Shown here: piece after piece, positions 2,007 through 35,208 of the stretch | Layout of the letters: the number at the start of each line of letters is the position of its first letter | Numbering within the stretch: position 1 is the stretch's first letter | Assembly: GCA_049591295.1 (NCBI GenBank) | Contig: JBAWEQ010000259.1 | Coordinates: 25,812 to 89,811, forward strand | Source: Acidobacteriota bacterium | GTDB lineage: Bacteria > Acidobacteriota > UBA4820 > DSQY01 | Reading direction: 5' to 3' | DNA length: 64,000 nucleotides | Notes under the pieces: model-generated | Database searches by the model: none | Told to the model about the DNA's origin: nothing | The model's input: the letters and a program-made list of their open reading frames with translations, nothing else | Position numbers and translations under genes: made by a program

Positions 2007-2031
2007 GGATGGACTCCTTTCTTCGAAAAGT

Positions 2032-2739
2032 TCAGGCTCCCCCCATCAGGGGCGCCCCGATGACGTACAGGCCAAGACACAGGATCAGCGCCCCAGCTCC
2101 GCGGCGCAGCCAGAGATTGGCGCTGGCCCATCGGCGGCTTGACAGCAGCCCTCTCACGGCACCCATGGAAACGCCTGCCAGGAGCACGAGCATGCAGTGG
2201 CCGAGGGCGTAAGTCAGCAACAGGCCCCCTCCGTAAAGGACGCTTCCCTTGGCGGCGATGAAGGCCAGGAGCACGGCCAGGATGGGCACCGCGCAGGGCG
2301 TCGAGATGACGCCGAAGAGAATGCCCAGGAGGAAGGCGCCCAGGGCGCCCCGGCTACGAGGCCTGAGGGGCAGCGCCAGGCCCAGGCGCAGCGGGAGCCA
2401 TCCCAGCATGTGCAGCCCCATCACGAGGCAGACTCCCCCGATGAGGTAGGGCCAGAATCGCCCCTGGACGCCGAAGAGCCTGCCCAGCAGGGCCGCGGCT
2501 AGGCCCAGGACGGTGAAGGTCAGGGCCAGCCCCGCCACCATCGAGAGGGCGTAGAGCATGGATCGCCTGAGCGACGAGGCCTGCTCGCTGCCCCCGACAT
2601 AAGCCAGAACGAGCGGGATGCTCACGAGCACGCACGGGTTGCTCGCGGTCAGGAGCCCGCCCAGGAAGGCCGCCCCGAAGGCAAGCACGGGCGCCGTCTC
2701 GATGAGATTCCCGAACTGGCTCAAAAGCCCTTCCATCAA
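2032..2739 (-). CDS. ccdA: CcdA/DsbD-family transmembrane thiol-disulfide electron transporter
   Basis: Polytopic membrane protein with conserved Cys in the first TM segment (ASNPCVL) and in the core (STPCAVP), which is the DsbD_2 architecture. Confidence 0.75.
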   Translation of the reverse strand: MMEGLLSQFGNLIETAPVLAFGAAFLGGLLTASNPCVLVSIPLVLAYVGGSEQASSLRRSMLYALSMVAGLALTFTVLGLAAALLGRLFGVQGRFWPYLIGGVCLVMGLHMLGWLPLRLGLALPLRPRSRGALGAFLLGILFGVISTPCAVPILAVLLAFIAAKGSVLYGGGLLLTYALGHCMLVLLAGVSMGAVRGLLSSRRWASANLWLRRGAGALILCLGLYVIGAPLMGGA

Positions 2740-25020: not shown

Positions 25021-25818
25021 CTATCGGAAGAAGTAGAGTCCGAAGGCCGCCGCCACGACGAAGCGGTAGTAGGCGAAGGGGGTGAGCTTCACCCGCACCA
25101 GGAGGCGCAGGAACCAGACCACGGCCAGCCACCCGACGACGAAGGAGACCAGGAAGCCCACCGCGAACATCCCGACGTCCGAGGAGGGCAGGCTCGAGGC
25201 GCTCTTGAAGAGGTCGAGGCCCGTGGCGGCCACCATGACGGGCACGGCAAGCATGAAGGAGAAGTCCGCCGCGGCGCGCAACCCGAGGCCGAGCAGGAGG
25301 GCCCCCGCGATGGTGGCGCCCGAGCGCGAGAAGCCCGGCCAGAGGGCGAGGCACTGGAAGCAGCCGATGCCGAGGGCCTGGAGGTAGGTGACGGAATCCG
25401 CCGTGGGGGCGGAGACCGGCCGCGGGAACCGTTCCACGAGAATCATCCAGATCCCCCCTCCCACGAGGCCTATGAGGACCGTGGTGGGTGTGAATAGGTA
25501 GGCCTTGATGGCGTGGAAGCCCAGCAACCCGACCACCGAGGCGGGAATCATGCCGAGGGCCATGTGCCAGACGTTGAGCCCCCCCTGGTCCCGCTTGAAG
25601 TGCCAGCGCCAAAGGATCTGCCAGAGGTGTCGCCGGTAGAGCCAGGCCACCGCCAGGATGGCGCCGAGCTGGATGAAGATCTCGAAACTCTTGGAGGCCT
25701 CGCCGGTGAAGCCCAGAAGGCTACCGGTGAGGATCAGGTGGCCAGTGGACGAGACGGGGATGAACTCCGTGAGTCCCTCCACGATGCCCTGGATGATCGC
25801 GATGAGATAGGGATTCAT
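25021..25818 (-). CDS. uppP: Undecaprenyl-diphosphate phosphatase
   Basis: BacA/UppP family with FIPVSSTGHL and SRSGATI motifs and eight TM helices. Confidence 0.85.
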   Translation of the reverse strand: MNPYLIAIIQGIVEGLTEFIPVSSTGHLILTGSLLGFTGEASKSFEIFIQLGAILAVAWLYRRHLWQILWRWHFKRDQGGLNVWHMALGMIPASVVGLLGFHAIKAYLFTPTTVLIGLVGGGIWMILVERFPRPVSAPTADSVTYLQALGIGCFQCLALWPGFSRSGATIAGALLLGLGLRAAADFSFMLAVPVMVAATGLDLFKSASSLPSSDVGMFAVGFLVSFVVGWLAVVWFLRLLVRVKLTPFAYYRFVVAAAFGLYFFR

Positions 25819-25947
25819 GGGACCTGCCTCCCTCCGTGCACCCCGCGCCGACGTCGGAGGCCAACTCGGCGCCCCTGGCCGGGAACAGGCTACTTTATCC
25901 CGCGGCCCCTGGCTTGAAAAGGTGGCGCCCCGCCGGCCATCTCGGCC

Positions 25948-27633
25948 TCAGGGCCTCGGTACGGCCTTGGCCATCCAACGCTTCACCGAGCGGTAGAGGC
26001 CGGGAGGGAAAGCCCCATTCATGAGCGGCGGCCAGCCTACCGCGCCGCCGGGCCCCATCACGACGGGCCCGCCCGCTTCGCCCAGCGGAAAGGGGGCGTA
26101 GATCAGATCCGCCGATCCCAAAGCGAACTCCGTGGTCATCAGGAGGCGCAGGACCATGGGGTTGAGCCGCACCTGCGCCTGGTTCGGCAGGAACTCCGCC
26201 AGCAGGCGAGGCGCCAGCGGAACCCAATCGGCGGGTTCGAGCGCCGGCGGAAGGACCCGGTCCGTCTTACCCAGCGCTATCTCCAGGACGAGCCGGGCCT
26301 CCTCCGCCTCCGCGGCCGGGGCGGCCAGGCCCGCAGCCGCCGAGAGCGACCAGCCGCCGTATCCCTGATACGCCAGCGTGTCGAAGGCGGGTACGCAGAA
26401 GGCGCCTGACAGGCCGGCAGGAGCCGCTCCCTCCCCGAGCACGGCATCCAGCAACTGGAAGGGCGTCGAGTACCGCTTGCCGTCCAGCGTGAAGGTGCCC
26501 TCGATCCGCCAGAAGGGGAGCCAGGCACGGCCCCCTTCGCCGGGCGCGTCGCCGAACCAGCCCTGTCCGACGGTGCGATAGGGAATCACCTGGAGCCCGC
26601 CGGGCGCCGCCCGCAGCATCCGCCCGCAGTTGCCGCATAGCTGATGCTCCGTACCTCCCTGCGGGCTTACGTCCCATCCGCACTCAGGGCAGCGGAAGGC
26701 CACCACGTGGATCGCGGGCGGCCGGACGTCATCGGGGCCCATCACCGGCCAGTCCTTCGCTGCAGCGCGCTCCACCTCCTCCGCTTTGGGGTAACCCGCC
26801 AGCGTGCGGAATTGACCGTCCAGGAGGAACCAGCCCAATCCCTCCGGCGTGCTCGCCTGCACGTAGTAGTAGGGCCGGTAGACCCACCATGCATGAGAAG
26901 CGAACACTTCGGAGTCAAAGAAGATGGGCGCAAGATCGGGTTCCAGGAGCCTGCCCTGCCGCAGCCAGCGTTTCGCGACGCGGCCGGGGTCCGCGTCGGC
27001 CGCCTGGGGCCGCATGAAGCGATGCTTCGCCAGGTCCTCGCCGGACAGGGGACGGAAGCGGAGGTGGGAGACCCACAGACCGGCATCCCTGAAATTCCAA
27101 TCGCTTCCGTAGGCGGGCAACAGATCATCGGCCACGTAAAAGAGGGATTGGAAGGCCTTCCGATCCGCCGGCGGCACGCGACCCAGAACGTGAAAGCCCA
27201 GGGACACCGACACCATGAGGTAGGGCGCGTAGATCCTGGTGTAGCCCCTGAGGGCGAACAGGCCCCGGCGCTTCGCCTTGATCTCGGCCAGGGCTGGAAG
27301 GTTTGCCTCCTGCATGTCCGTCAGGAGCGAGGGGGCATCGTTGCGCCGCGACTGTTGTTGGGCGATCCCAGCCAGGCGCGCCTGCTCCCGGACGGCGTCG
27401 TAGGTCTGGAGCACGTCGAGCAAGTCGTCCCGGGATCGGATGCGGTCCTCGGCCAGAAGGAAGCGCCTCTCTCCCTCCGGTTCCGGCCAGAGGAGGCGCG
27501 AGTCGCAGTAGGAGCAGACGTTCAGCCGCTGCAGAAGCCCCCAGCGGTTCTCTCCCCCGCAGTTGGGACAGGCCGCCCAGACCTCGTGATCGAGCGCCCC
27601 TGATCCCTCTCCCCGTCCCGCCTCCTCCGCCAT
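25948..27633 (-). CDS. Hypothetical protein with two zinc-ribbon modules (start at MAEEAGRG with a strong GGAGGGA RBS; ORF maximum extends to 27831)
   Basis: CPNCGG...CSYC near the N-terminus and CPECGW...CGNCG mid-protein. No recognisable catalytic motifs. Codon bias is consistent with a coding sequence. Confidence 0.5.
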   Translation of the reverse strand: MAEEAGRGEGSGALDHEVWAACPNCGGENRWGLLQRLNVCSYCDSRLLWPEPEGERRFLLAEDRIRSRDDLLDVLQTYDAVREQARLAGIAQQQSRRNDAPSLLTDMQEANLPALAEIKAKRRGLFALRGYTRIYAPYLMVSVSLGFHVLGRVPPADRKAFQSLFYVADDLLPAYGSDWNFRDAGLWVSHLRFRPLSGEDLAKHRFMRPQAADADPGRVAKRWLRQGRLLEPDLAPIFFDSEVFASHAWWVYRPYYYVQASTPEGLGWFLLDGQFRTLAGYPKAEEVERAAAKDWPVMGPDDVRPPAIHVVAFRCPECGWDVSPQGGTEHQLCGNCGRMLRAAPGGLQVIPYRTVGQGWFGDAPGEGGRAWLPFWRIEGTFTLDGKRYSTPFQLLDAVLGEGAAPAGLSGAFCVPAFDTLAYQGYGGWSLSAAAGLAAPAAEAEEARLVLEIALGKTDRVLPPALEPADWVPLAPRLLAEFLPNQAQVRLNPMVLRLLMTTEFALGSADLIYAPFPLGEAGGPVVMGPGGAVGWPPLMNGAFPPGLYRSVKRWMAKAVPRP

Positions 27634-28028
27634 GCTCCCTCCGCCGGATCCCATCGGGGTCCGGGCCTTGAGGTTAGCACAGTCGGTGTCATCAGCGATG
27701 GCCGCCGATCCTGCCGAGGGCCTCCTGGAAATGGGGAGAGCCCCTGTTCTCCACGTGGGTTCCGCCATCCAGGGCAGCCCTCCCTTCGTCCGTTCCGACC
27801 CATCCTCGATGGGTGTGCCGCTTCGGCACATCCGGGCCCCGATGCCCCGGCCGCTTTGGCACGGTTCATCCCTTCACATTTCACAATGAGCTGAAAAAAC
27901 GTCATTTCCCCTCCTCGGGGGAACTGGCATGCGTGATGCATTCAAGAAAACCTTCGGTGCCGAGGACAACGTCCCAGGCGCCGAGAGGTTCGGCCCCTCC
28001 GAACCCAATCCCTCCCTCCCCTTCCACA

Positions 28029-28050
28029 GGCCCGCCCGCAAGGGCGGGCC
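28029..28050 (+). other. GC-rich stem-loop GCCCGCCC-GCAA-GGGCGGGC (GNRA-like loop) within a long intergenic region
   Basis: 8-bp perfect stem with a GCAA tetraloop followed by CGCCCCATTTCT. No upstream gene on either strand for it to terminate. Confidence 0.35.
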
Positions 28051-28135
28051 GCCCCATTTCTAGGGGCGTGCCCCGTGCTTGAGGAAGAGACTCGGCCCCG
28101 CTTTCGATCACCAGCCGCGCGCTGGGCCCGTGCTA

Positions 28136-28335
28136 GTGCGCTGTCTCTAAAATGGGTTGACCATTGAAGCATGTGAGAGACAGCACACGGAGGGGTGCTG
28201 GGAGGAAGCCTCCCCGCTCCTTCGGGGTAACAGCCCCCGCGGGCGGACGCCCTAGGGGCGGAGCCCCTTGGGAAGTGTTGTGTCCCAGGAAAAAGCCATG
28301 GTAAACACAATCCAGGGACACAACACTAGCATGGA
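28136..28335 (+). ncRNA. Candidate structured RNA / 5' leader upstream of 28353 (series of stable hairpins, two mutually exclusive)
   Basis: Hairpin 28140-28184 (GCTGTCTCT...AGAGACAGC), GGGAGG-aagc-CCTCCC at 28198-28214 competing with CCCCG-ctcctt-CGGGG at 28212-28227, and a 15-bp stem GTGTTGTGTCCCAGG/CCAGGGACACAACAC at 28275-28326 ending 9 nt before the RBS. None of the ORFs in this region look like genes. Confidence 0.35.
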
Positions 28336-28352
28336 AGGCCGAGGAGCGAAGC

Positions 28353-28715
28353 ATGGATGATCTGCACGTGAGGGCCGTCACGGCCGATGAACAGGAACGG
28401 TTGGTCAGCTGCCTGCTCTGCGGAGAACTCTTCGAGGCCGGCTCCGAGGCCGCCGTGCTCTACGATGGCGATGAGCCGATGGGTGAACTCTGCCCCGCCT
28501 GCCTCCGGTCAGGCCCGAGAGAGGCGGCCCTGCGCGCACGCGAGTATGCCGCACAGCTCCACGCCATGGCCGAAGGCTACCTCGGATTGGCGGAGCAGGT
28601 GGAGTCTTTGGACGGATGGATGAACCGCCGTGGCGAAGCCCCTGGCCGGCTCTCGTCCGTTGAGACCGAGAAACATCCCCCTCCCAACGATCCCCGACGT
28701 TACAAACCGGTCTAG
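28353..28715 (+). CDS. Hypothetical small protein with CxxC...CxxC
   Basis: 120 aa, GAGGAG RBS, GC3-rich codons, and a zinc-ribbon-like CLLCGE...CPAC pattern. Confidence 0.4.
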   Translation: MDDLHVRAVTADEQERLVSCLLCGELFEAGSEAAVLYDGDEPMGELCPACLRSGPREAALRAREYAAQLHAMAEGYLGLAEQVESLDGWMNRRGEAPGRLSSVETEKHPPPNDPRRYKPV

Positions 28716-28782
28716 GAGGGCCTGGCCGGGTGACGGGTCCCTCTTCCTGGCCCCCTTCTCCCCGCCTTACTCCCCGCCACGT

Positions 28783-28876
28783 CTTGCGGCGGCTCCGCTA
28801 TCTCCCTCACCCCCCGCTGGCCACCTCCCGGCAGATCAGCTTCTGGTGCGCCGCCTCCAGCGGACACCCGCCGCCG
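28783..28876 (-). repeat. Direct repeat duplicating the 3' end of the radical SAM/SPASM gene (copy of 29020-29112)
   Basis: The minus strand encodes GGGCPLEAAHQKLICREVASGG-stop, versus CGGGCPLEAAHQKLYCREVASGG-stop at the genuine C-terminus. About 90% nt identity over ~90 nt, and the similarity continues into the 3' flank (GAGCCGCCGCA). Confidence 0.7.
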
Positions 28877-29042
28877 CGTCGCGCAAGCGCTCCCCAAGGA
28901 GGGCCTCGGCCGGCCCTCCTCGGCGCTCCCCCGGCCTTCGCCGGGCTCGCTGCTCCTCTCTGCTCTTGCGCGGGTTGCCCTCTGCGCGGGGGAACCTCTC
29001 CGTTCCCCCGCTCCCCCTCGCCCTGCGGCGGCTCCCTTCCCC

Positions 29043-30389
29043 TCACCCCCCGCTGGCCACTTCCCGGCAATAGAGCTTCTGATGGGCCGCCTCCAGCGGA
29101 CACCCGCCGCCGCAGAGGCTGAGGTGCTCACAGGCCTCGCACTCGGGCAGGGGCTTCTGGGGCTGACGGAGCTTGAGGCAGAGGGGGTGGTTCCAGATGG
29201 ACTCCCACGAATCGGTCAGAAGGTTGCCTACGCCTTCGTAATAGGATTGGCAGGGGATGACCGTTCCGTCCGGCTCCACCGCCATGCTCAGCCTCGCCGC
29301 CGTGCACTGCTTGACGCCGAGCGCCATCTCCACGGGGTTCAACTCGCAGTACCGCGTCGGGGTGTACCAGACGAAGCGGAGCCGCTTTTCGCGGGCCTGA
29401 CGGGCCAGCGTTTCCAGAACGGGTGCGACCTCCCGCGAGGTGAGGTCGATGCCCGAGCTCTTGCCCTTGCCCGAGTAGATCATCCCGTTGACGGCAAAGG
29501 TGCCGAGACCTTCGGCGGCCACCAGATCCACGAGGTTCTCGATGCCGGGCAGGTTGACCCGCGTGAGCGTGGTGTTGGTCAGGGTGAAGAGGCCCGAAGC
29601 CTTGGACTGGCGGAGCCCGGCCAGGGTCTCCTCGAAGGAGTCGGATCGGGTCAGGGCGTTGTGGAGGCTCGGATCGGCCGACTCCAGGGTGATCTGGACG
29701 TGATCCAGACCGGCCTCCCGAAGCGCCCCCGTGTAGGCGGCGTCCCGCAGGCGCCGCCCGTTGGTGTTGAGGCCCGTGACCAGCCCAAGCTCTCCGGCGT
29801 AGGCCACCAGCGCGGGCAGGTCGTCGCGGAGCGTGGGCTCGCCTCCCGTGAAGACCACGTGCGGTATGCCCGCCGACTCGCAGGCGTCCAGCACCCGCCT
29901 CCAACCAGCCGTGTCTAGCTCGGAGACCTGCCTGGATTCCTGGTTGTAGCAGTGGCTGCACCGGTTCTGGCAACGGTAGGTGAGGGCCAGGTCCATGCGC
30001 AGCGGGGCGCTCATGGCGGTTGAGAAGGGCTCGATGAGCTCGATCCCCAGGTCCGACAGGGGACAGACCTGGTCCGTGGCGGAGAGCCTACGCACCGCCT
30101 GGAGGATGCGCGAGAGGTCCGGTTCCAGCACCGCGCGCTTTACGCGATAGCGCCGGGCCATGAGATCCACCGTCTCGGCCTCGCTCAATCCGTCCACCAG
30201 GTGCTTCACCATCTCCGCCGCGGTGGGGTTCAGGTGGAGGATGCGGCTGGCGTCGAGGGTAAGGACTCCGGCTCCCGAGGGCTCGACCCGGAGGTGGATC
30301 CGGTGGGTGGTCCCCTCCACGATGAGGGTCCCCGGGTAGAGTCCCACCTTGACCCGCTCGGGTCTCCTGAAGAGGTCTCTCAGCCCCAT
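29043..30389 (-). CDS. Radical SAM/SPASM-domain peptide-modifying enzyme with N-terminal PqqD-like RRE domain
   Basis: CQNRCSHC (CxxxCxxC) radical SAM cluster motif. The N-terminal ~110 aa resemble a PqqD/RiPP-recognition element (LHLNPTAAEMVKHLVDG...). The C-terminal SPASM Cys array is CEACEHLSLCGGGCP. Confidence 0.8.
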   Translation of the reverse strand: MGLRDLFRRPERVKVGLYPGTLIVEGTTHRIHLRVEPSGAGVLTLDASRILHLNPTAAEMVKHLVDGLSEAETVDLMARRYRVKRAVLEPDLSRILQAVRRLSATDQVCPLSDLGIELIEPFSTAMSAPLRMDLALTYRCQNRCSHCYNQESRQVSELDTAGWRRVLDACESAGIPHVVFTGGEPTLRDDLPALVAYAGELGLVTGLNTNGRRLRDAAYTGALREAGLDHVQITLESADPSLHNALTRSDSFEETLAGLRQSKASGLFTLTNTTLTRVNLPGIENLVDLVAAEGLGTFAVNGMIYSGKGKSSGIDLTSREVAPVLETLARQAREKRLRFVWYTPTRYCELNPVEMALGVKQCTAARLSMAVEPDGTVIPCQSYYEGVGNLLTDSWESIWNHPLCLKLRQPQKPLPECEACEHLSLCGGGCPLEAAHQKLYCREVASGG

Positions 30390-30450
30390 GGCATCCTCCC
30401 TTTGCCCTCACTCCTGCGCACCAGGTCGAGCCTATTTCCCTTCGGGCCGT

Positions 30451-31989
30451 TCATCTTCCGCCTCCCGCGCAGGCGCAGGCGCAGCCAGCGCAAGCGCAAG
30501 CACAGGCGCAGCCTCCTCCCGAGGCGTGGCCCGAAGACTGCGGCACGGGATTCGTCTGCTGGGTGACCTTGGTGGCGAGGCCGGGGACGCTGTTCACCAG
30601 GTCGTGGGCGAACCCCTCCAGCCCCGTCACGACGGTGTTGGCCGCCGCCACGGGGCTCGGAGCGGGCACTCCTCCCCCCGCCGTTCCGGCCGTATGGCCG
30701 GTGTATAAGGGCACCCACCAGACGGGGAGCGGCATGGGGTTGTTCCCGAAACGCTGCGCGGCCTGCTGGCCGAACTCCTTGTCCAGGAGCATCCATTCGA
30801 AGGCCTGGGCGTAGTCCTGGCTCCCCACCTGCTCCCACGCCTTCCTCATGATCTCGCGGTAGTAGAGGACGCTCTTCTTCCGGCTGAAGCCCTTCATCTT
30901 CTCCTGGACCCGCTTGATGAGGTCCGTCAGGACCGCCACCGCCTCCTTCTCGCTGATTCGGCCGTCGTCCTGAACGGCCTTGGCGAAGGCCTGCTCGTAG
31001 TCCGCGGCCGGGGCCTCCCCCGGTACCAGCTCCAGCTTCAGCGGCGCTCGTCCCACCACCTTCAGGAGGTTCTTCCGTATCATGCCGAAGAGGAGGAGGG
31101 CCATCACCTTGTCCACGGGCTCCTCCATGAGGACGGCTACCTCGGGCACCGTCAGCCCCCTCCGCACCTCCACTCCCTCCATCCCGATGCTGGGCGGCAG
31201 GTATTTGAGGCGCCGACGCCGCGACTGGACGATCACCAGGATGAAGAGGCCGAAGAAACCAGCCATGAAGACGCAGGGCAAGGCACCGAGGATGAGCTGC
31301 CCCAGGGCTGCCGCCATCCTGGCGGCCGGCCCCGGCCCCTTCGGAACGGCAGCCAGCCGCTCCATGACCTTGGCCGGGAACGACGCCCCGAAGGTGACCT
31401 GGCGGGAGGGAGAGGCGTTCGGCATGTCCCACGTGTAGATGACCCGGCCTTGCTCCACCCGGGCCGAAGTGAAAGGCGTACCGTGGTAGCGGGGGTCGTC
31501 GGGCCCCACGCCCTCGGGGAAAACGAAGCTGCAGACCAGGAGAGTGGTCCCCGAGGTGTACTGGGAGCCGTACCAGGTGGGACTGAATTCCAGGCTGGCG
31601 TAGGAGGAGTCCTTGCTGTCGGGGAACACCCTGTTCCTGGCCACGGCCGAGAGGTGCAGCGTTCCCTCGGAGCCTGCGGGAATGGCCCTCTCGCCCAGAT
31701 GGACCTCCACCCCATACTGGAGGTAGGAAGAGGGCCGGATATCCGTCAGGGCCGCCCCATCCAGGTCGGCCTTCACCCCCTTCAGATCGTACTGGCCGTC
31801 GGGGAGGCCCACGTCGATGACGTCGATCGGCTGTCCCTGGTTCCGGAAGGTGATGGCGTACCGAATGGTGATGGAGGCGTCGCGATTCACCTCGACGACG
31901 CTGCGGTTCTGCGGTACCTCGAACCGGTAATCGGCCAGGACAGCGAGGCCCACCGCCAGGGCCACCAGGGCAACGAACAGTCTCTTCAT
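30451..31989 (-). CDS. DUF2207-like membrane protein with C-terminal (Cys-Ala)n tail (start at MKRLFVAL after a GGAGGGGG RBS; ORF maximum extends to 32028)
   Basis: Signal peptide, an extracytoplasmic N-domain (YRFEVPQNRSVVEVNRDASITIRYAITF), TM helices, a cytoplasmic domain, and the terminal GGGCACACACAGCACACAGGGR. Confidence 0.6.
   Translation of the reverse strand: MKRLFVALVALAVGLAVLADYRFEVPQNRSVVEVNRDASITIRYAITFRNQGQPIDVIDVGLPDGQYDLKGVKADLDGAALTDIRPSSYLQYGVEVHLGERAIPAGSEGTLHLSAVARNRVFPDSKDSSYASLEFSPTWYGSQYTSGTTLLVCSFVFPEGVGPDDPRYHGTPFTSARVEQGRVIYTWDMPNASPSRQVTFGASFPAKVMERLAAVPKGPGPAARMAAALGQLILGALPCVFMAGFFGLFILVIVQSRRRRLKYLPPSIGMEGVEVRRGLTVPEVAVLMEEPVDKVMALLLFGMIRKNLLKVVGRAPLKLELVPGEAPAADYEQAFAKAVQDDGRISEKEAVAVLTDLIKRVQEKMKGFSRKKSVLYYREIMRKAWEQVGSQDYAQAFEWMLLDKEFGQQAAQRFGNNPMPLPVWWVPLYTGHTAGTAGGGVPAPSPVAAANTVVTGLEGFAHDLVNSVPGLATKVTQQTNPVPQSSGHASGGGCACACACAGCACACAGGGR
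30456..30516. repeat. Simple sequence repeat (GCAGGC/GCAAGC hexamer units) encoding the Cys-Ala tail
   Basis: Minus-strand sequence tgc gcc tgt gct tgc gct tgc gct ggc tgc gcc tgc gcc tgc, imperfect 6-nt tandem units. Confidence 0.6.
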
Positions 31990-32226
31990 GACCTTTTCCC
32001 CCTCCGAAGCGGTCGGCCTTCGCCGCACCTTCCCGGTACCCTCAGCGGCGGGGCGCCGCTTTGCGAGTCATCCCCGTCGCTCTCCCTCCAAGAGAAGCCC
32101 TTCCGACGGGTCGCGGGTTCTATGTACTCCGCGCTACCGCCCATACTGCCCAACCGGCACCACCCGATCGCTCCGGGGACCGCCTTCGAGGAAACCCTCG
32201 AGATGGTGATGTCGGCTTCGCCGCGA

Positions 32227-32676
32227 TCACCACTTGGGCTCCTCTTGGATCAGGAAGGAGCCTTTGCAGTAGGGACAGGTGAGGGTGAGCGTCCCCTCGG
32301 GATTCAGGCGCGCCGTGGAGGCATCCACCTGGCCGCCGCAGTGCGGGCAGTTGAGCGCCTTGAGATTGATCTCTCCCGGCGGCTCCTGCCCCCGGGCCAC
32401 GCCGCCGGAGAGATCCCCCGGCTGGCCGGTGCTCCGCGAGGCGTTGCGGGCGAGGACCACGGCCAGGGCCGCCAGCAGCAGGCCTCCCAGCAGGAGGATC
32501 CCGCCGATCGCCGCCCTGGGAAGGCTCTTGCCCTGCGCCACCGCGTCGGGGTGAAAGGCCGAGAGGACGAAGATCGTCCCCAGGAAGAGCAGGGGCAGGC
32601 ACAGCACCACCGCCAACAGGACCAGCAGCCAGATCAGGGCGGGGAATGTCGTCGAACCTCGGCTCATGTGCCTCAT
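32227..32676 (-). CDS. Membrane protein with C-terminal zinc ribbon
   Basis: Two TM helices followed by CPHCGG...CPYCKG. Its 4-nt overlap with the upstream phosphatase gene indicates an operon. Confidence 0.5.
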   Translation of the reverse strand: MRHMSRGSTTFPALIWLLVLLAVVLCLPLLFLGTIFVLSAFHPDAVAQGKSLPRAAIGGILLLGGLLLAALAVVLARNASRSTGQPGDLSGGVARGQEPPGEINLKALNCPHCGGQVDASTARLNPEGTLTLTCPYCKGSFLIQEEPKW

Positions 32677-33350
32677 TGTAGGCTTCCGGGGCCCGGTTGG
32701 GGGAGTTGGGGTCCGGCAGGAATCATCGGATCGGGCATTTCCCGCACCTCCCCGCGCAGCCTGGCCCTATCCAGCCCCGCTACGTAACGCCTGAGGTTCA
32801 AAAAGACCGGGTGGAAGCCGAAGTTCGGCAACTCCGCTTCCGCCAGTGCCGGATCCCAATCCTGAACCACCACGCGGTAGGCCGCGACCATGACGCCGGT
32901 GCGGTCGGAACCGTGCTGGCAGTGCACGAAGACCGGCTGGCAGGCCGCGTCGGTGGCCAGCTTCAGGAAGAGGACCACGGGGGCATCATTTATGCGCCAG
33001 GCGTCGCAGGGAATCTCCACGTACCGAATGCCTAGGTCCGCCAGAAGCGGGGCATCGCTGTGGTGGTCCCGAAGGTTGATGACCGTTCGCACACCCATGG
33101 CTTTCAGGCTTTCGAACCCTTCCCGCGTGGGCTGGGCGCCCCGATAGAGGCCGTCGGACACCCGGGCGAAGTTGGGTAGGCCGGAGAGATCTCCTCGCGG
33201 CACGGCCAGGCCGCCGAGGTAGGAGGGGGTCGCTTTCAGCGAACGGGCTCCTGCTGCGGCGAGCAACAGGCAGAGCACCGCCGCACCCGCCGCCAGGACG
33301 GGAAGCGAGGTTCCTGGCCCGTTCCCCTTTGCGCGTGGGTCTTCCCTCAT
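32673..33350 (-). CDS. Protein-tyrosine/dual-specificity phosphatase (CX5R)
   Basis: HCQHGSDRTG active-site loop, with an N-terminal signal/anchor. Confidence 0.7.
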   Translation of the reverse strand: MREDPRAKGNGPGTSLPVLAAGAAVLCLLLAAAGARSLKATPSYLGGLAVPRGDLSGLPNFARVSDGLYRGAQPTREGFESLKAMGVRTVINLRDHHSDAPLLADLGIRYVEIPCDAWRINDAPVVLFLKLATDAACQPVFVHCQHGSDRTGVMVAAYRVVVQDWDPALAEAELPNFGFHPVFLNLRRYVAGLDRARLRGEVREMPDPMIPAGPQLPQPGPGSLQ

Positions 33351-33363
33351 GGCAGCGCCTCCC

Positions 33364-34935
33364 TCAGAGCTTGGACCAGAAGCGCCCGAACACCACGGTG
33401 GTCAGGATGAAGCCCAGCGGCACGTTGACGAGCACGCCGATGGTGAAGGCCCAGAACGGCTTGAGGCCGAAGGTCGCCAGGTCTCGGAAGCGCGTAGAGA
33501 GGCCGATGCAGAGGAAGCACAGCACGAAGGCCCAGGAGCGCAACTTCTTGATGGGGGCGATCACCTTGGGCGTGAGAACGCTCTCGAACCAGTTGCTCGA
33601 ACGGGCCAGCGCGGCGATGGCCCAGCGCTGGTCCTGGGTTGTGGCCGCCTCCTCCAGAAGCCGCTGCTCTTCGCGGGTCATGGTCCCCGAAAAGCCAAGC
33701 TCCCCCTTCACGGCGTCAATCGTGAACTTGCCGGCCAGCGAGGGCGGCACTGCGAAGGAGGAGAAGTCCGCCTGGTGGGCCGCGCCCTGAAATCGCCCCT
33801 CCATCCTCGCCGCCCCTCCATGGCCGGTCGGAGGACGGCCCGCGACCAGGCTCATGACCACCGACGCCAGGAGAAATCCGATCACGAACTTCGGGAAGCG
33901 TTCCCAAACGATGCCTGCTCCCACCCGCCCCTTGGCCCCACCGCCGTCCTCCCAGAAAACCACCGACACCACGGAGAGGATGAGGCACCAGATCCCGATC
34001 CAGATGTCCCGGCCGATGACCTTCATCAGCGTGAAAGCGTTGATGGGGGCATCACCGAAGCGGGTGGCCAGCTCGGCCACTACCGCGAATCCGGCGGCGT
34101 CGGCGAACTCCGAGTTGCCCACCCAGGCCCCCGCCTCCCCCGGCGAGATGGGGTTGGGAACGGTGTGCTTCAGGATGATGGTGAGGGCGAAGATCATGAC
34201 GATGGCCCAGACGGTCACCACGGCGATGGCGATGGAGATGTGGTCCTTCTTGGCCTTCACGGCCCCGCCTACGGCGATGGAGGCGGAGACACCGCAGACG
34301 GCCCCTGCTGCTCCCAGCACGGCTCCGAATTTGGGCTCCAGTTTGAAGAGCCGGGTCGCGGCCAGGTAGATCGTCAGCCACGTTGTAACGGAGACGATGG
34401 TGGCCTGCAGGAAGGCCACGGGACCCGCCGAGAAGACGAGGGTAAGGGGAAGGGTTGCGCCGAGAAGCACGATGCCCGTCTTGATGTAGTACTCGGTGCA
34501 GAGGCACTCCTTGCACCACTCGGGAATGCCCAGCGTATTGGAGATGACCAGCCCCGCGATGAGGGCGAGGAGAGGGGCCTCCACGTTGAACTCCTCCATC
34601 ACCTTCCAGCCCGCCGCGTAGAAGATCACCAGGGAGCCGACGAAGAGAAGGGCGAAACCCGGGACGAACCTCCTGGGGGAGTGGCCCATGATGGCCATGG
34701 ATAGGGAGAAGACCACTCCGAAGAGCAGGAAGATGGCCAGGTAACCGGCGGCGTGTTGCGCCAGATCCTGGGGGACGGCCGAAAGGTGTGTCCACTTGGG
34801 AGGCGTCACCGCCCACCCTTGGATGGACCCCCCGGACCAGAAGGCGGCGAGGGCGAAGAGAACCAGCCCCATGCCAAACCATACGGACCACCAGTCCTCG
34901 GTCTTCCACAGTTTCTCGATCCCGCCGGGCGCCAT
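33364..34935 (-). CDS. Polytopic membrane transporter, UPF0324/YeiH-like (putative sulfate exporter family)
   Basis: 523 aa, 10+ TM helices, and duplicated Gly-rich helices typical of YeiH/PSE-like proteins. Confidence 0.5.
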   Translation of the reverse strand: MAPGGIEKLWKTEDWWSVWFGMGLVLFALAAFWSGGSIQGWAVTPPKWTHLSAVPQDLAQHAAGYLAIFLLFGVVFSLSMAIMGHSPRRFVPGFALLFVGSLVIFYAAGWKVMEEFNVEAPLLALIAGLVISNTLGIPEWCKECLCTEYYIKTGIVLLGATLPLTLVFSAGPVAFLQATIVSVTTWLTIYLAATRLFKLEPKFGAVLGAAGAVCGVSASIAVGGAVKAKKDHISIAIAVVTVWAIVMIFALTIILKHTVPNPISPGEAGAWVGNSEFADAAGFAVVAELATRFGDAPINAFTLMKVIGRDIWIGIWCLILSVVSVVFWEDGGGAKGRVGAGIVWERFPKFVIGFLLASVVMSLVAGRPPTGHGGAARMEGRFQGAAHQADFSSFAVPPSLAGKFTIDAVKGELGFSGTMTREEQRLLEEAATTQDQRWAIAALARSSNWFESVLTPKVIAPIKKLRSWAFVLCFLCIGLSTRFRDLATFGLKPFWAFTIGVLVNVPLGFILTTVVFGRFWSKL

Positions 34936-35208
34936 GATCCCCTCCCCTCAGCCGGCGGTCCCGCTCCGCGGAGCTGTTCGGCCCTCGCTCCCGCGGCCCC
35001 CGGACAACGCGCCGGTCCTGTCATCGAAGATCCCACCGAAGTGTAGCACGGAGGTGACCTCTCCCCACACCGGACGGCCCATCGAGCCTCGCACCGGCCA
35101 ATACCCCATGAAGAGACGATCGGCCAACCTTCGCTCCAGTGTGGACCGCTCTTCGTAAGCCGGGAATATACTTCAAGTCGAAACGATTTAATGTGATCTT
35201 ACGACGAG

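What the first reader, a model, noticed from the sequence alone, without database searches (positions are those of the whole stretch)
27634..28352. 720-bp divergent intergenic region packed with stable and mutually exclusive hairpins: candidate riboswitch or sRNA locus
No convincing ORF on either strand; all candidates are GC-frame artefacts. The region contains a GCCCGCCC-GCAA-GGGCGGGC stem-loop at 28029-28050 and a 9-bp stem at 28140-28184 with a nested ATGG...CCAT hairpin. It also contains two overlapping alternative helices sharing a CCCC run (GGGAGG-aagc-CCTCCC versus CCCCG-ctcctt-CGGGG, 28198-28227). A 15-bp stem with a 23-nt loop (28275-28326) ends 9 nt before the RBS of the small Cys protein gene at 28353. 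Competing helices directly upstream of an RBS are the hallmark of a cis-regulatory leader. I could not match the sequence to SRP, RNase P, tmRNA, 6S or common riboswitch consensus motifs from memory.
Basis: seen in the sequence. Interest (0 to 1): 0.5.

Follow-up and report, generated by a model that had tools for sequence, protein, structure and literature searches.

The report
Conserved small RNA gene in Acidobacteria

Summary
All four hairpins are at the stated coordinates, the region folds far better than shuffles (z -7.7), no ORF has a coding signature, and Rfam has no match.

The gap has three parts:
- 27634-27811: conserved only in very close relatives.
- 27812-28062: a module present in nine other metagenomic or MAG loci (one of them a cut contig), whatever genes flank it.
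- 28063-28773: present only in this genome. It holds three of the four flagged hairpin sets and the orphan 120-aa gene.

The module holds two copies of GCCGCTTYGGCA 33 bp apart, then CTGGCATG-N4-ATGCAT, a sigma-54 -24/-12 pattern with invariant blocks and a variable spacer. A roughly 110-nt RNA (27951-28062, + strand) follows.

Seventy bases are identical in all full-length copies except one position, while 40% of third codon positions vary in neighbouring bacA. The 44-aa ORF over it shows no codon-position bias and no conserved stop.

Best reading: a new trans-acting small RNA whose C-rich stretch pairs with G-rich ribosome-binding sites. The promoter type and the targets are inferred. The riboswitch or leader reading is not supported.

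The parts
27814..27830 (+). Conserved motif copy 1, TGTGCCGCTTCGGCACA (core GCCGCTTCGGCA at 27817-27828). Putative activator (enhancer) site about 130 nt upstream of the predicted start.
   Evidence: The core CTTCGGCAC is invariant in 8 aligned sequences while sequence to its left is unrelated. The 12-mer occurs only here in 64 kb. The function is inferred.
27849..27862 (+). Conserved motif copy 2, CGGCCGCTTTGGCA, 33 bp from copy 1. Putative second activator site about 95 nt upstream of the predicted start.
   Evidence: Invariant in all 8 aligned sequences. Direct repeat D1 with copy 1. An alternative reading, in which the two copies pair as an RNA hairpin, has weak covariation support.
27863..27923 (+). 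Variable spacer between the upstream motifs and the promoter.
   Evidence: Poorly conserved. It carries an 11-nt insertion, about one helical turn, in L082/L135.
27924..27941 (+). Sigma-54-type promoter candidate CTGGCATG-CGTG-ATGCAT, with GG at 27926-27927 (-25/-24) and GC at 27938-27939 (-13/-12).
   Evidence: It matches 10 of 12 specified positions of TGGCACG-N4-TTGCW. Both blocks are invariant in all sequences that contain this stretch, while 3 of 4 spacer bases and the 9 bases after it vary. This match quality alone is expected about 5 times per 128 kb by chance. No conserved -35/-10 pair was found (and reading).
27951..28062 (+). Predicted small RNA, about 110 nt. The 5' end is inferred from the promoter geometry and the 3' end from where conservation stops.
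   Evidence: The covariance model built on this stretch finds exactly one copy per locus, at 133-143 bits in each of 10 full-length matches (window plus 9), with one further match cut at a contig end. The + strand folds at z -4.4 to -6.4 in four genomes, the - strand at z -1.2. Conservation ends within a few bases after CCCCA(A/T)TT.
27953..27985 (+). Stem-loop 1: 9 bp, an internal loop, then 3-4 bp.
   Evidence: All 12 pairs are kept in all sequences. Two pairs show G-C to A-U double changes and two show one-sided U.G to U-A changes. Of 9 unpaired columns 8 vary, against 6 of 24 paired columns (Fisher p 0.0015).
27987..28005 (+). Stem-loop 2: GGUUCGG-CCCCU-CCGAACC.
   Evidence: Invariant in all copies, so the pairs cannot be tested. 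Present in every single-sequence MFE fold.
28006..28028 (+). Unpaired C/U-rich stretch CCCAAUCCCUCCCUCCCCUUCCACA. Proposed seed for pairing with G-rich ribosome-binding sites.
   Evidence: Unpaired in MFE and centroid folds of all four genomes tested. Invariant except one A/T column. Its complement GGAGGGAG(G) is the conserved Shine-Dalgarno sequence of bacA and of the 561-aa gene. The targeting is inferred.
28029..28050 (+). Terminator-like 3' stem followed by GCCCCAUUU.
   Evidence: A 9-bp G+C stem with a GNRA loop, invariant. No canonical U tract, so the terminator scan did not call it. Weak Rfam hits here match only generic terminator stems.
28063..28352 (.). Possibly the 5' untranslated region of the 120-aa ORF. 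Not part of the conserved RNA module.
   Evidence: Absent from L001, L009, L082 and L133-L138. Synteny resumes at 28774 (L001) or 28802 (L009). No similar DNA in the window, the loci, plasmids or phages. Folds at z -4.8 (+) and -5.4 (-), so no strand preference.
28353..28715 (+). 120-aa CxxC...CxxC orphan ORF.
   Evidence: GC by codon position is 0.74/0.48/0.74, which is coding-like. GAGGAG lies 5 nt before the ATG. The only database match is itself, an NCBI hypothetical protein from an Acidobacteriota MAG.

Best explanation
Window 27812-28062 is a self-contained gene for a roughly 110-nt non-coding RNA on the + strand.

Shown:
- The module is kept as a unit in related Acidobacteriota while the genes on both sides change.
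- It is under nucleotide-level selection rather than codon-level selection.
- It folds on the + strand into three stem-loops, with a 23-nt unpaired C/U-rich stretch before the last one.
- The variable first stem keeps its pairs through compensatory changes.

Inferred:
- Transcription starts near 27951 from a sigma-54-type promoter (CTGGCATG-N4-ATGCAT).
- That promoter is switched on by an unidentified enhancer-binding activator. It would bind the two GCCGCTTYGGCA copies about 95 and 130 bp upstream.
- Transcription ends after the GCAA hairpin.
- The free stretch CCCUCCCUCCCC, perhaps together with the CCCCU loop, pairs with G-rich Shine-Dalgarno regions (GGAGGGAG) of target mRNAs and blocks translation. 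This is how the C-rich small RNAs 6C, RoxS/RsaE and IsrR work.

The remaining hairpins of the finding (28140-28327) belong to a genome-specific insertion in front of an orphan ORF. Their role cannot be established.
For: Conservation independent of neighbours. The module is found in L001, L009, L011 (cut at a contig end), L082 and L133-L138.
- Upstream gene: the 561-aa gene, bacA (L082, L135) or uvrC (L133).
- Downstream gene: the 120-aa orphan (window only), a radical SAM gene, or a marR operon (L082).

Selection at nucleotide level.
- 27987-28056 is identical in all full-length copies except one column, while 40% of bacA third positions vary among the same genomes. P(at most 1 variable site of 70) is about 1e-14.
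- In the 44-aa ORF frame the variable columns are 10/8/11 for codon positions 1/2/3, against 24/9/107 in bacA.
- The stop is not conserved: the open frame from the shared ATG runs 44 aa in the window but has no stop within the sequence compared in L082, L136, L134 and L138, and database ORFs over the element are 205-347 aa.

Structure.
- The same three-hairpin fold is the MFE in four genomes, z -4.4 to -6.4 on the + strand against -1.2 on the - strand.
- All 28 pairs are kept in all sequences, with 2 compensatory and 2 one-sided changes, all in stem-loop 1.
- In stem-loop 1 variation concentrates in unpaired columns (p 0.0015).
- U.G pairs fit only the + strand.

Promoter.
- The -24 and -12 blocks are invariant, while the spacer and the -11 to +1 region vary.
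- The predicted +1 falls 2 nt before stem-loop 1.
- The only length change between the upstream motifs and the promoter is 11 nt.
- No conserved sigma-70-type hexamers were found.

Precedents.
- Pxr is 108 nt with three stem-loops and a predicted sigma-54 promoter (PMC5568312).
Against: - There are no expression data: the transcript, its ends and its strand are all predicted.
- Only 5-6 distinct sequences exist, and two of the three stems never vary. Covariation rests on stem-loop 1 alone. In the shuffle control, 30 of 500 shuffles reach the observed values.
- The sigma-54 match (10/12) is no better than about 5 chance sites per 128 kb.
- No rpoN or enhancer-binding protein gene was found among the window genes scanned. 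A GAFTGA-type activator was seen only in a distant relative, L006.
- The conserved GGCAU...AUGC blocks could equally form a 4-bp RNA hairpin.
- The upstream motifs can be drawn as one long hairpin with some covariation (4 pairs; 5 of 500 shuffles reach this). That would put the start upstream of 27809.
- The 3' stem lacks a U tract.
- Target pairing is unspecific: GGAGGGAG occurs 18 times in the window outside the RNA.
Confidence: 0.55

Rival explanations
1. The RNA is longer. It would start upstream of 27809 and include the two GCCGCTTYGGCA copies as a long imperfect hairpin and the GGCAU...AUGC blocks as a small hairpin. On this reading the conserved 250 nt is one structured RNA, or a 5' leader read through into whatever lies downstream, and there is no sigma-54 promoter.
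For: RNAalifold draws cols 4-66 of alignment A6 (27809-27870) as one hairpin with 95.5% of cells paired. Four pairs change on both sides, which 5 of 500 shuffles reach. The + strand of 27634-27947 folds at z -4.1 against -1.3 for the - strand. The sigma-54 match is not significant on its own.
Against: - The outer stem is broken in the closest relatives, L009 and L011.
- The inner 'stems' follow automatically from two copies of a palindromic motif.
- About 55 nt between the hairpin and the promoter blocks are almost unconserved and carry an 11-nt indel. That fits spacer DNA better than RNA.
- The downstream genes differ in every lineage, and in most loci the next gene is convergent. A shared leader function is therefore unlikely.
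Confidence: 0.17
2. The conserved stretch encodes a small protein, the 44-aa ORF 27929-28063 (MRDAFKKTFGAEDNVPGAERFGPSEPNPSLPFHRPARKGGPPHF). It might, for example, be a peptide linked to the nearby radical SAM maturase.
For: The ATG and the reading frame are kept in all copies, with no frameshift. A purine-rich stretch (GGGGGA, or GGAGGA in L001) lies 7 nt upstream. GC by codon position is 0.62/0.53/0.80, which is coding-like. A radical SAM/SPASM/PqqD gene lies about 1 kb away.
Against: - There is no third-position excess: 10/8/11 against 24/9/107 in bacA.
- All 23 third positions of the invariant stretch are unchanged (P about 7e-6).
- Residues 5-16 change radically.
- The stop codon is not conserved and the frame runs on for 200-300 codons in other lineages.
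- L082 keeps the element but lacks the radical SAM gene.
- The ATG lies inside the -24 block, so it would be untranscribed if the promoter is real.
- No Pfam or NCBIfam family was tested for it.
Confidence: 0.06
3. The hairpin-rich stretch would be a cis-regulatory 5' leader (riboswitch, thermosensor or attenuator) controlling the 120-aa CxxC protein, perhaps fed by read-through from the RNA promoter.
For: Strong folding at z -4.8. A 17-bp stem ends 14 nt before GAGGAG. Overlapping alternative helices lie at 28200-28227. No promoter-like site was found inside the stretch, so read-through from 27951 is possible.
Against: - There is no homologue of the stretch or of the gene anywhere searched, so no covariation test is possible.
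- Folding is equally strong on the - strand (z -5.4), as expected for plain DNA inverted repeats.
- No Rfam match beyond microRNA noise.
- Alternative helices are common in 65% G+C sequence.
Confidence: 0.12
4. The conserved module acts at the DNA level only, as a cluster of protein-binding or recombination sites at a rearrangement hot spot, without a functional RNA product.
For: Flanking gene content differs on both sides in different lineages, and breakpoints lie right at the module's edges. The module contains palindromes.
Against: - The strand asymmetry of folding (z -5.4 against -1.2) and the U.G pairs point to RNA.
- So do the compensatory changes that keep a stem.
- Seventy invariant bases are far more than known binding sites need.
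- The module is single-copy and syntenic, not mobile.
Confidence: 0.06

Closest known systems
Pxr small RNA of Myxococcus xanthus and other myxobacteria
   Same: [quoted passage not shown] The size, layout and promoter type are the same as proposed here.
   Different: A different phylum with no detectable sequence similarity. No Rfam family of any kind matched the region, even at E up to 10. Pxr lies next to its sigma-54-dependent regulator nla19, whereas no such regulator gene is next to this module. Pxr has experimental support and this RNA has none.
GlmY/GlmZ of Enterobacteriaceae (sigma-54 promoter plus GlrR sites plus IHF)
   Same: Small RNA genes driven by sigma-54 promoters that need an activator bound at conserved repeated sites upstream of the promoter (PMC3045617). 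Here two conserved repeats lie about 95 and 130 bp upstream.
   Different: The GlrR site consensus is TGTC-N10-GACA, while here the motif is GCCGCTTYGGCA. GlmY acts by protein sequestration and GlmZ by pairing with glmS. There is no sequence or structure similarity and no Rfam hit.
C-rich-motif small RNAs: 6C (Actinobacteria), RoxS/RsaE and IsrR (Firmicutes)
   Same: Short RNAs whose unpaired C-rich stretches pair with G-rich ribosome-binding regions of several mRNAs (6C: PMC6486639; RoxS: PMC5419742; IsrR: PMC9410917; all listed). This RNA has an invariant unpaired CCCUCCCUCCCC stretch and a CCCCU loop.
   Different: In 6C the C-rich motifs sit in loops, while here the main one is a linear single-stranded stretch before the terminator. 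None of those families matched at Rfam thresholds. Their promoters are not sigma-54-type. No target is known here.
Rfam families with weak sub-threshold hits: CC0196 (Caulobacter) and scr4677 (Streptomyces)
   Same: CC0196 aligns to CUUCCAC plus the terminal GC hairpin (21.5 bits). scr4677 aligns to the C-rich stretch plus the hairpin (19.8 bits).
   Different: Both are far below their gathering scores (35 and 41 bits). They cover only a generic terminator or low-complexity C-rich sequence, which is not evidence of homology.

Membership tests
Any Rfam 15 RNA family (riboswitches, 6S, SRP, RNase P, tmRNA, 6C, known small RNAs) | Covariance-model score at or above the family's gathering threshold | tested here: not met
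   No hits in the whole window at gathering thresholds. In 27500-28500 at E up to 10 the best hits are 21.5 bits (cut-off 35) and 19.8 bits (cut-off 41).
Trans-acting bacterial small RNA (generic class) | Independent intergenic unit conserved irrespective of the flanking genes | tested here: met
   The same 250-nt module has three different upstream and three different downstream neighbours.
Trans-acting bacterial small RNA (generic class) | Non-coding: no codon-periodic substitution pattern and no conserved ORF boundaries | tested here: met
   Variable columns are 10/8/11 by codon position, against 24/9/107 in bacA. The stop codon is not conserved.
Trans-acting bacterial small RNA (generic class) | Conserved secondary structure supported by covariation | tested here: inconclusive
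   All pairs are kept and 2 are compensatory, but only in one of three stems and with 6 sequences. 30 of 500 shuffles reach the observed values.
Trans-acting bacterial small RNA (generic class) | A discrete transcript with defined 5' and 3' ends | not testable with these tools
   No expression data are available. The ends are inferred from promoter geometry and from the edge of conservation.
Trans-acting bacterial small RNA (generic class) | Rho-independent terminator (GC stem followed by a U tract) | tested here: inconclusive
   A 9-bp GC stem is present, but the tail is GCCCCAUUU. The terminator scan did not call it. Conservation stops just after it.
Sigma-54-dependent promoter | GG and GC doublets exactly 10 bp apart within TGGCACG-N4-TTGCW | tested here: met
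   CTGGCATG-CGTG-ATGCAT matches 10 of 12 positions with both doublets present. The chance expectation is about 5 such sites per 128 kb.
Sigma-54-dependent promoter | Conservation confined to the -24 and -12 blocks, with a free spacer | tested here: met
   Both blocks are invariant in the 8 aligned sequences (and in all 10). The spacer varies at 3 of 4 positions and the -11 to +1 region varies.
Sigma-54-dependent promoter | rpoN and a cognate enhancer-binding ATPase present in the genome | tested here: inconclusive
   None was found among about 35 window proteins scanned. An ESELFGH...GSFTGA protein was seen only in a distant relative, L006. The rest of the genome is not available.
Sigma-54-dependent promoter | Upstream activator sites about 80-150 bp from the start | tested here: inconclusive
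   Two invariant GCCGCTTYGGCA copies lie at about -95 and -130. No binding protein is known, and a hairpin reading is also possible.
   28063-28352 and the 120-aa gene have no counterpart in any relative. The conserved module precedes different genes, mostly convergent ones, in each lineage.

The most novel reading that the evidence does not exclude
The RNA would be the first sigma-54-controlled riboregulator described for the phylum Acidobacteriota. Its invariant 70 nt would be a multi-partner interaction surface: an anti-Shine-Dalgarno-like CCCUCCCUCCCC stretch that damps translation of a set of envelope genes. One candidate is the almost always adjacent bacA, whose CGGAGGGAG ribosome-binding site is conserved in every locus. 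An unknown two-component signal would control it.
Probability: 0.15. Interest if true: 0.55.

Novelty: new member of a known kind. Interest (0 to 1): 0.35.

Why it matters
Searches of the paper library turned up no study of an Acidobacteriota small RNA, and Rfam has no model for this one. A single-copy RNA gene kept base-for-base identical over 70 nt, while its neighbours are reshuffled, is a strong candidate regulator in a poorly known, uncultured lineage. It comes with a testable promoter model and a testable seed. The hairpins just upstream of the ribosome-binding site are the least supported part of the region. Raw hairpin density in 65-70% G+C DNA is a poor guide without comparison to related genomes.

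Tried and rejected
- Rfam at gathering thresholds on the whole window and at E up to 10 on 27500-28500 gave nothing usable.
- The sigma-70 promoter and intrinsic terminator scan found no sites.
- Exact look-up of the 120-aa protein found it is not on record. A homology search returned only the protein itself.
- A metagenome scan with the 18-nt seed CCCTCCCTCCCCTTCCAC gave 120 stretches, of which only one (L082) was a true homologue.
- The same pattern in viral contigs gave one chance hit.
- A search with a concatenated six-frame translation of the element against the protein database recovered spurious ORFs that overlap the element, and through them six more loci. P0021 added only an identical copy.
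- A search for further copies or paralogues of the element in the window and in distant relatives (L002-L008, L012) found none.
- A duplex scan of the seed against 50 translation-start regions in the window gave no outstanding target. The energies are dominated by generic G-rich sites.
- Plasmid and phage collections had no match to 27800-28780.
- Scans for a sigma-54 activator or rpoN in the window found none.
- MITE, mobile-element and attC readings of the insertion were rejected, because there are no other copies and no matching terminal repeats.

Full report
**What is in the sequence.**
The finding covers the gap between two genes. On the left is a 561-aa zinc-ribbon protein gene on the - strand. 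Its true start is 27633, because homologues are 561-562 aa. On the right is a 120-aa CxxC...CxxC ORF at 28353-28715.

The 719-nt region folds much better than dinucleotide shuffles, at z -7.7 on the + strand and -5.9 on the - strand. ORFs inside the gap lack the GC-by-codon-position signature of real genes in this 68% G+C genome. Rfam has nothing at gathering thresholds. At E up to 10 it gives only generic terminator, C-rich or microRNA noise.

**Comparison with relatives splits the gap into three parts.**
The upstream protein led to related Acidobacteriota MAG contigs. Alignment showed that similarity to the gap is confined to about 27810-28062.
- 27634-27811 is conserved only in the closest relatives, L009 and L011.
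- 28063-28773 is absent from every relative. It contains three of the four flagged hairpin sets and the whole 120-aa ORF. Synteny resumes at 28774 in L001 and at 28802 in L009.
- That insert has no similar DNA in the window, the loci, plasmids or phages.
- The ORF's only database match is itself.

**More copies of the conserved part.**
A metagenome scan with an 18-nt core gave one true homologue, L082, among many chance hits, and the scan was truncated. Searching a concatenated six-frame translation of the element against the protein database recovered spurious ORFs laid over it. Through those ORFs it recovered loci L133-L138.

A covariance model (R1) finds exactly one copy per locus, at 133-143 bits in each of ten full-length matches (the window plus nine loci). 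An eleventh match is cut by the end of contig L011. The model finds none in more distant relatives.

The neighbours differ between lineages:
- Upstream: the 561-aa gene, bacA (L082, L135) or uvrC (L133).
- Downstream: the orphan ORF (window only), a convergent radical SAM gene, or a marR-doxX-wrbA operon (L082).

The module therefore behaves as an independent, single-copy gene.

**Anatomy of the module.**
- Two copies of GCCGCTTYGGCA at 27817-27828 and 27850-27861, 33 bp apart. These are the only exact matches in 64 kb.
- A poorly conserved spacer whose only length change is 11 nt.
- CTGGCATG-CGTG-ATGCAT at 27924-27941. Both blocks are invariant, while 3 of 4 spacer bases and the following 9 bases vary.
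- From 27953, stem-loop 1 (27953-27985), stem-loop 2 (27987-28005) and the unpaired stretch CCCAAUCCCUCCCUCCCCUUCCACA (28006-28028).
Conservation stops just after this.

**RNA, not protein.**
The same three-hairpin fold is the MFE in four genomes, at z -4.4 to -6.4. The reverse strand gives z -1.2.

All 28 pairs are kept in every sequence. Stem-loop 1 has two G-C to A-U double changes and two U.G to U-A changes. In that stem-loop 8 of 9 unpaired columns vary, against 6 of 24 paired columns (p 0.0015).

A 44-aa ORF (27929-28063) is open in all copies, but three results argue against it:
- Its variable columns are 10/8/11 by codon position, against 24/9/107 in bacA from the same genomes.
- All 23 third positions of the invariant 70-nt stretch are unchanged (P about 7e-6).
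- Its stop is not conserved. The frame has no stop within the sequence compared in four other lineages, and database ORFs over the element reach 205-347 aa.

The limits of the structure evidence are real. There are only 5-6 distinct sequences, two stems never vary, and 30 of 500 shuffles reach the observed covariation.

**How it is probably made and how it probably works (inferred).**
The two conserved blocks match the sigma-54 consensus TGGCACG-N4-TTGCW at 10 of 12 positions, with the GG and GC doublets correctly spaced. This places +1 at about 27951, 2 nt before stem-loop 1. No conserved -35/-10 pair exists (and reading). The two upstream repeats at about -95 and -130, and the one-helical-turn indel, fit an enhancer-dependent promoter.

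This is the layout reported for Pxr (PMC5568312) and for GlmY/GlmZ (PMC3045617).

Three caveats apply:
- Such a match is expected about 5 times per 128 kb by chance.
- No rpoN or activator gene lies in the window.
- The upstream repeats can also be drawn as a long hairpin with some covariation, which keeps a longer-RNA rival alive.

The invariant unpaired C/U-rich stretch resembles the seeds of C-rich small RNAs that block G-rich ribosome-binding sites (6C, RoxS/RsaE and IsrR). Its complement GGAGGGAG(G) is the conserved ribosome-binding site of bacA and of the 561-aa gene. It is also common elsewhere in the window, so no target can be named.

**The rest of the finding.**
The stretch 28063-28352 folds well on both strands, at z -4.8 and -5.4. 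That is what plain inverted repeats in DNA give. It may be the 5' untranslated region of the orphan ORF, possibly reached by read-through from the RNA promoter. With no homologue, neither covariation nor conservation can be tested, and the riboswitch or leader interpretation is unsupported.

**Verdict.**
The region holds a real and previously undescribed candidate small RNA gene of narrow distribution. It is a new member of a known kind.

Noticed in passing
window 29043-30389 (-) and 30451-32028 (-): A radical SAM/SPASM/PqqD-domain maturase with no NCBIfam equivalog (best hits far below their cut-offs). Next to it lies a 525-aa protein with no family hit whose C-terminus is GGGCACACACAGCACACAGGGR. 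That Cys-Ala repeat tail could be the maturase's substrate. A maturase gene followed by a gene for a 512-525-aa protein is present in L001 and L133-L138.
   Followed up: partly
window 28767-28877 and 29003-29113: A 111-nt direct repeat (78% identity). It is a partial duplicate of the 3' end of the radical SAM gene lying just downstream of that gene. L001 carries three copies of the ...GGCPLEAEHQKLVCREVASGG tail.
   Followed up: partly
window 25948-27633 (-): The 561-aa protein with zinc-ribbon-like CxxC pairs belongs to a very rare family: only 17 clusters among 5.8 billion proteins, with no Pfam or NCBIfam domain above cut-off. It is partly deleted in L009 and absent in L082.
   Followed up: partly
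window 28353-28715 (+): The 120-aa CxxC-N24-CxxC ORF is an orphan whose only database match is itself. It sits inside a roughly 710-nt genome-specific insertion, and its codon-position G+C pattern is coding-like.
   Followed up: yes
window 25827-25835 (-), upstream of bacA (25021-25818): The bacA ribosome-binding site CGGAGGGAG is identical in all seven loci examined and is complementary to the RNA's C-rich stretch. The 9-mer GGAGGGAGG occurs only three times in the window outside the RNA gene. It is a speculative target.
   Followed up: partly
L082 / L139 / L140 compared with window 25948-35100: One lineage lacks the 561-aa gene and the roughly 7-kb block from the orphan ORF to the Cons_hypoth698 gene. 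It keeps the RNA module between bacA and marR-doxX-wrbA, so both sides of the module are rearrangement points.
   Followed up: partly
L011 (contig end at the equivalent of window 27996): The contig carrying the closest relative of the 561-aa gene ends in the middle of the conserved RNA. No second copy of the RNA was found that would explain an assembly break.
   Followed up: partly
L006 about 2016-2060 (+): A sigma-54 enhancer-binding protein signature (ESELFGH...GSFTGA) lies about 4 kb from the homologue of the 561-aa gene in a distant relative. That locus has no copy of the RNA.
   Followed up: no
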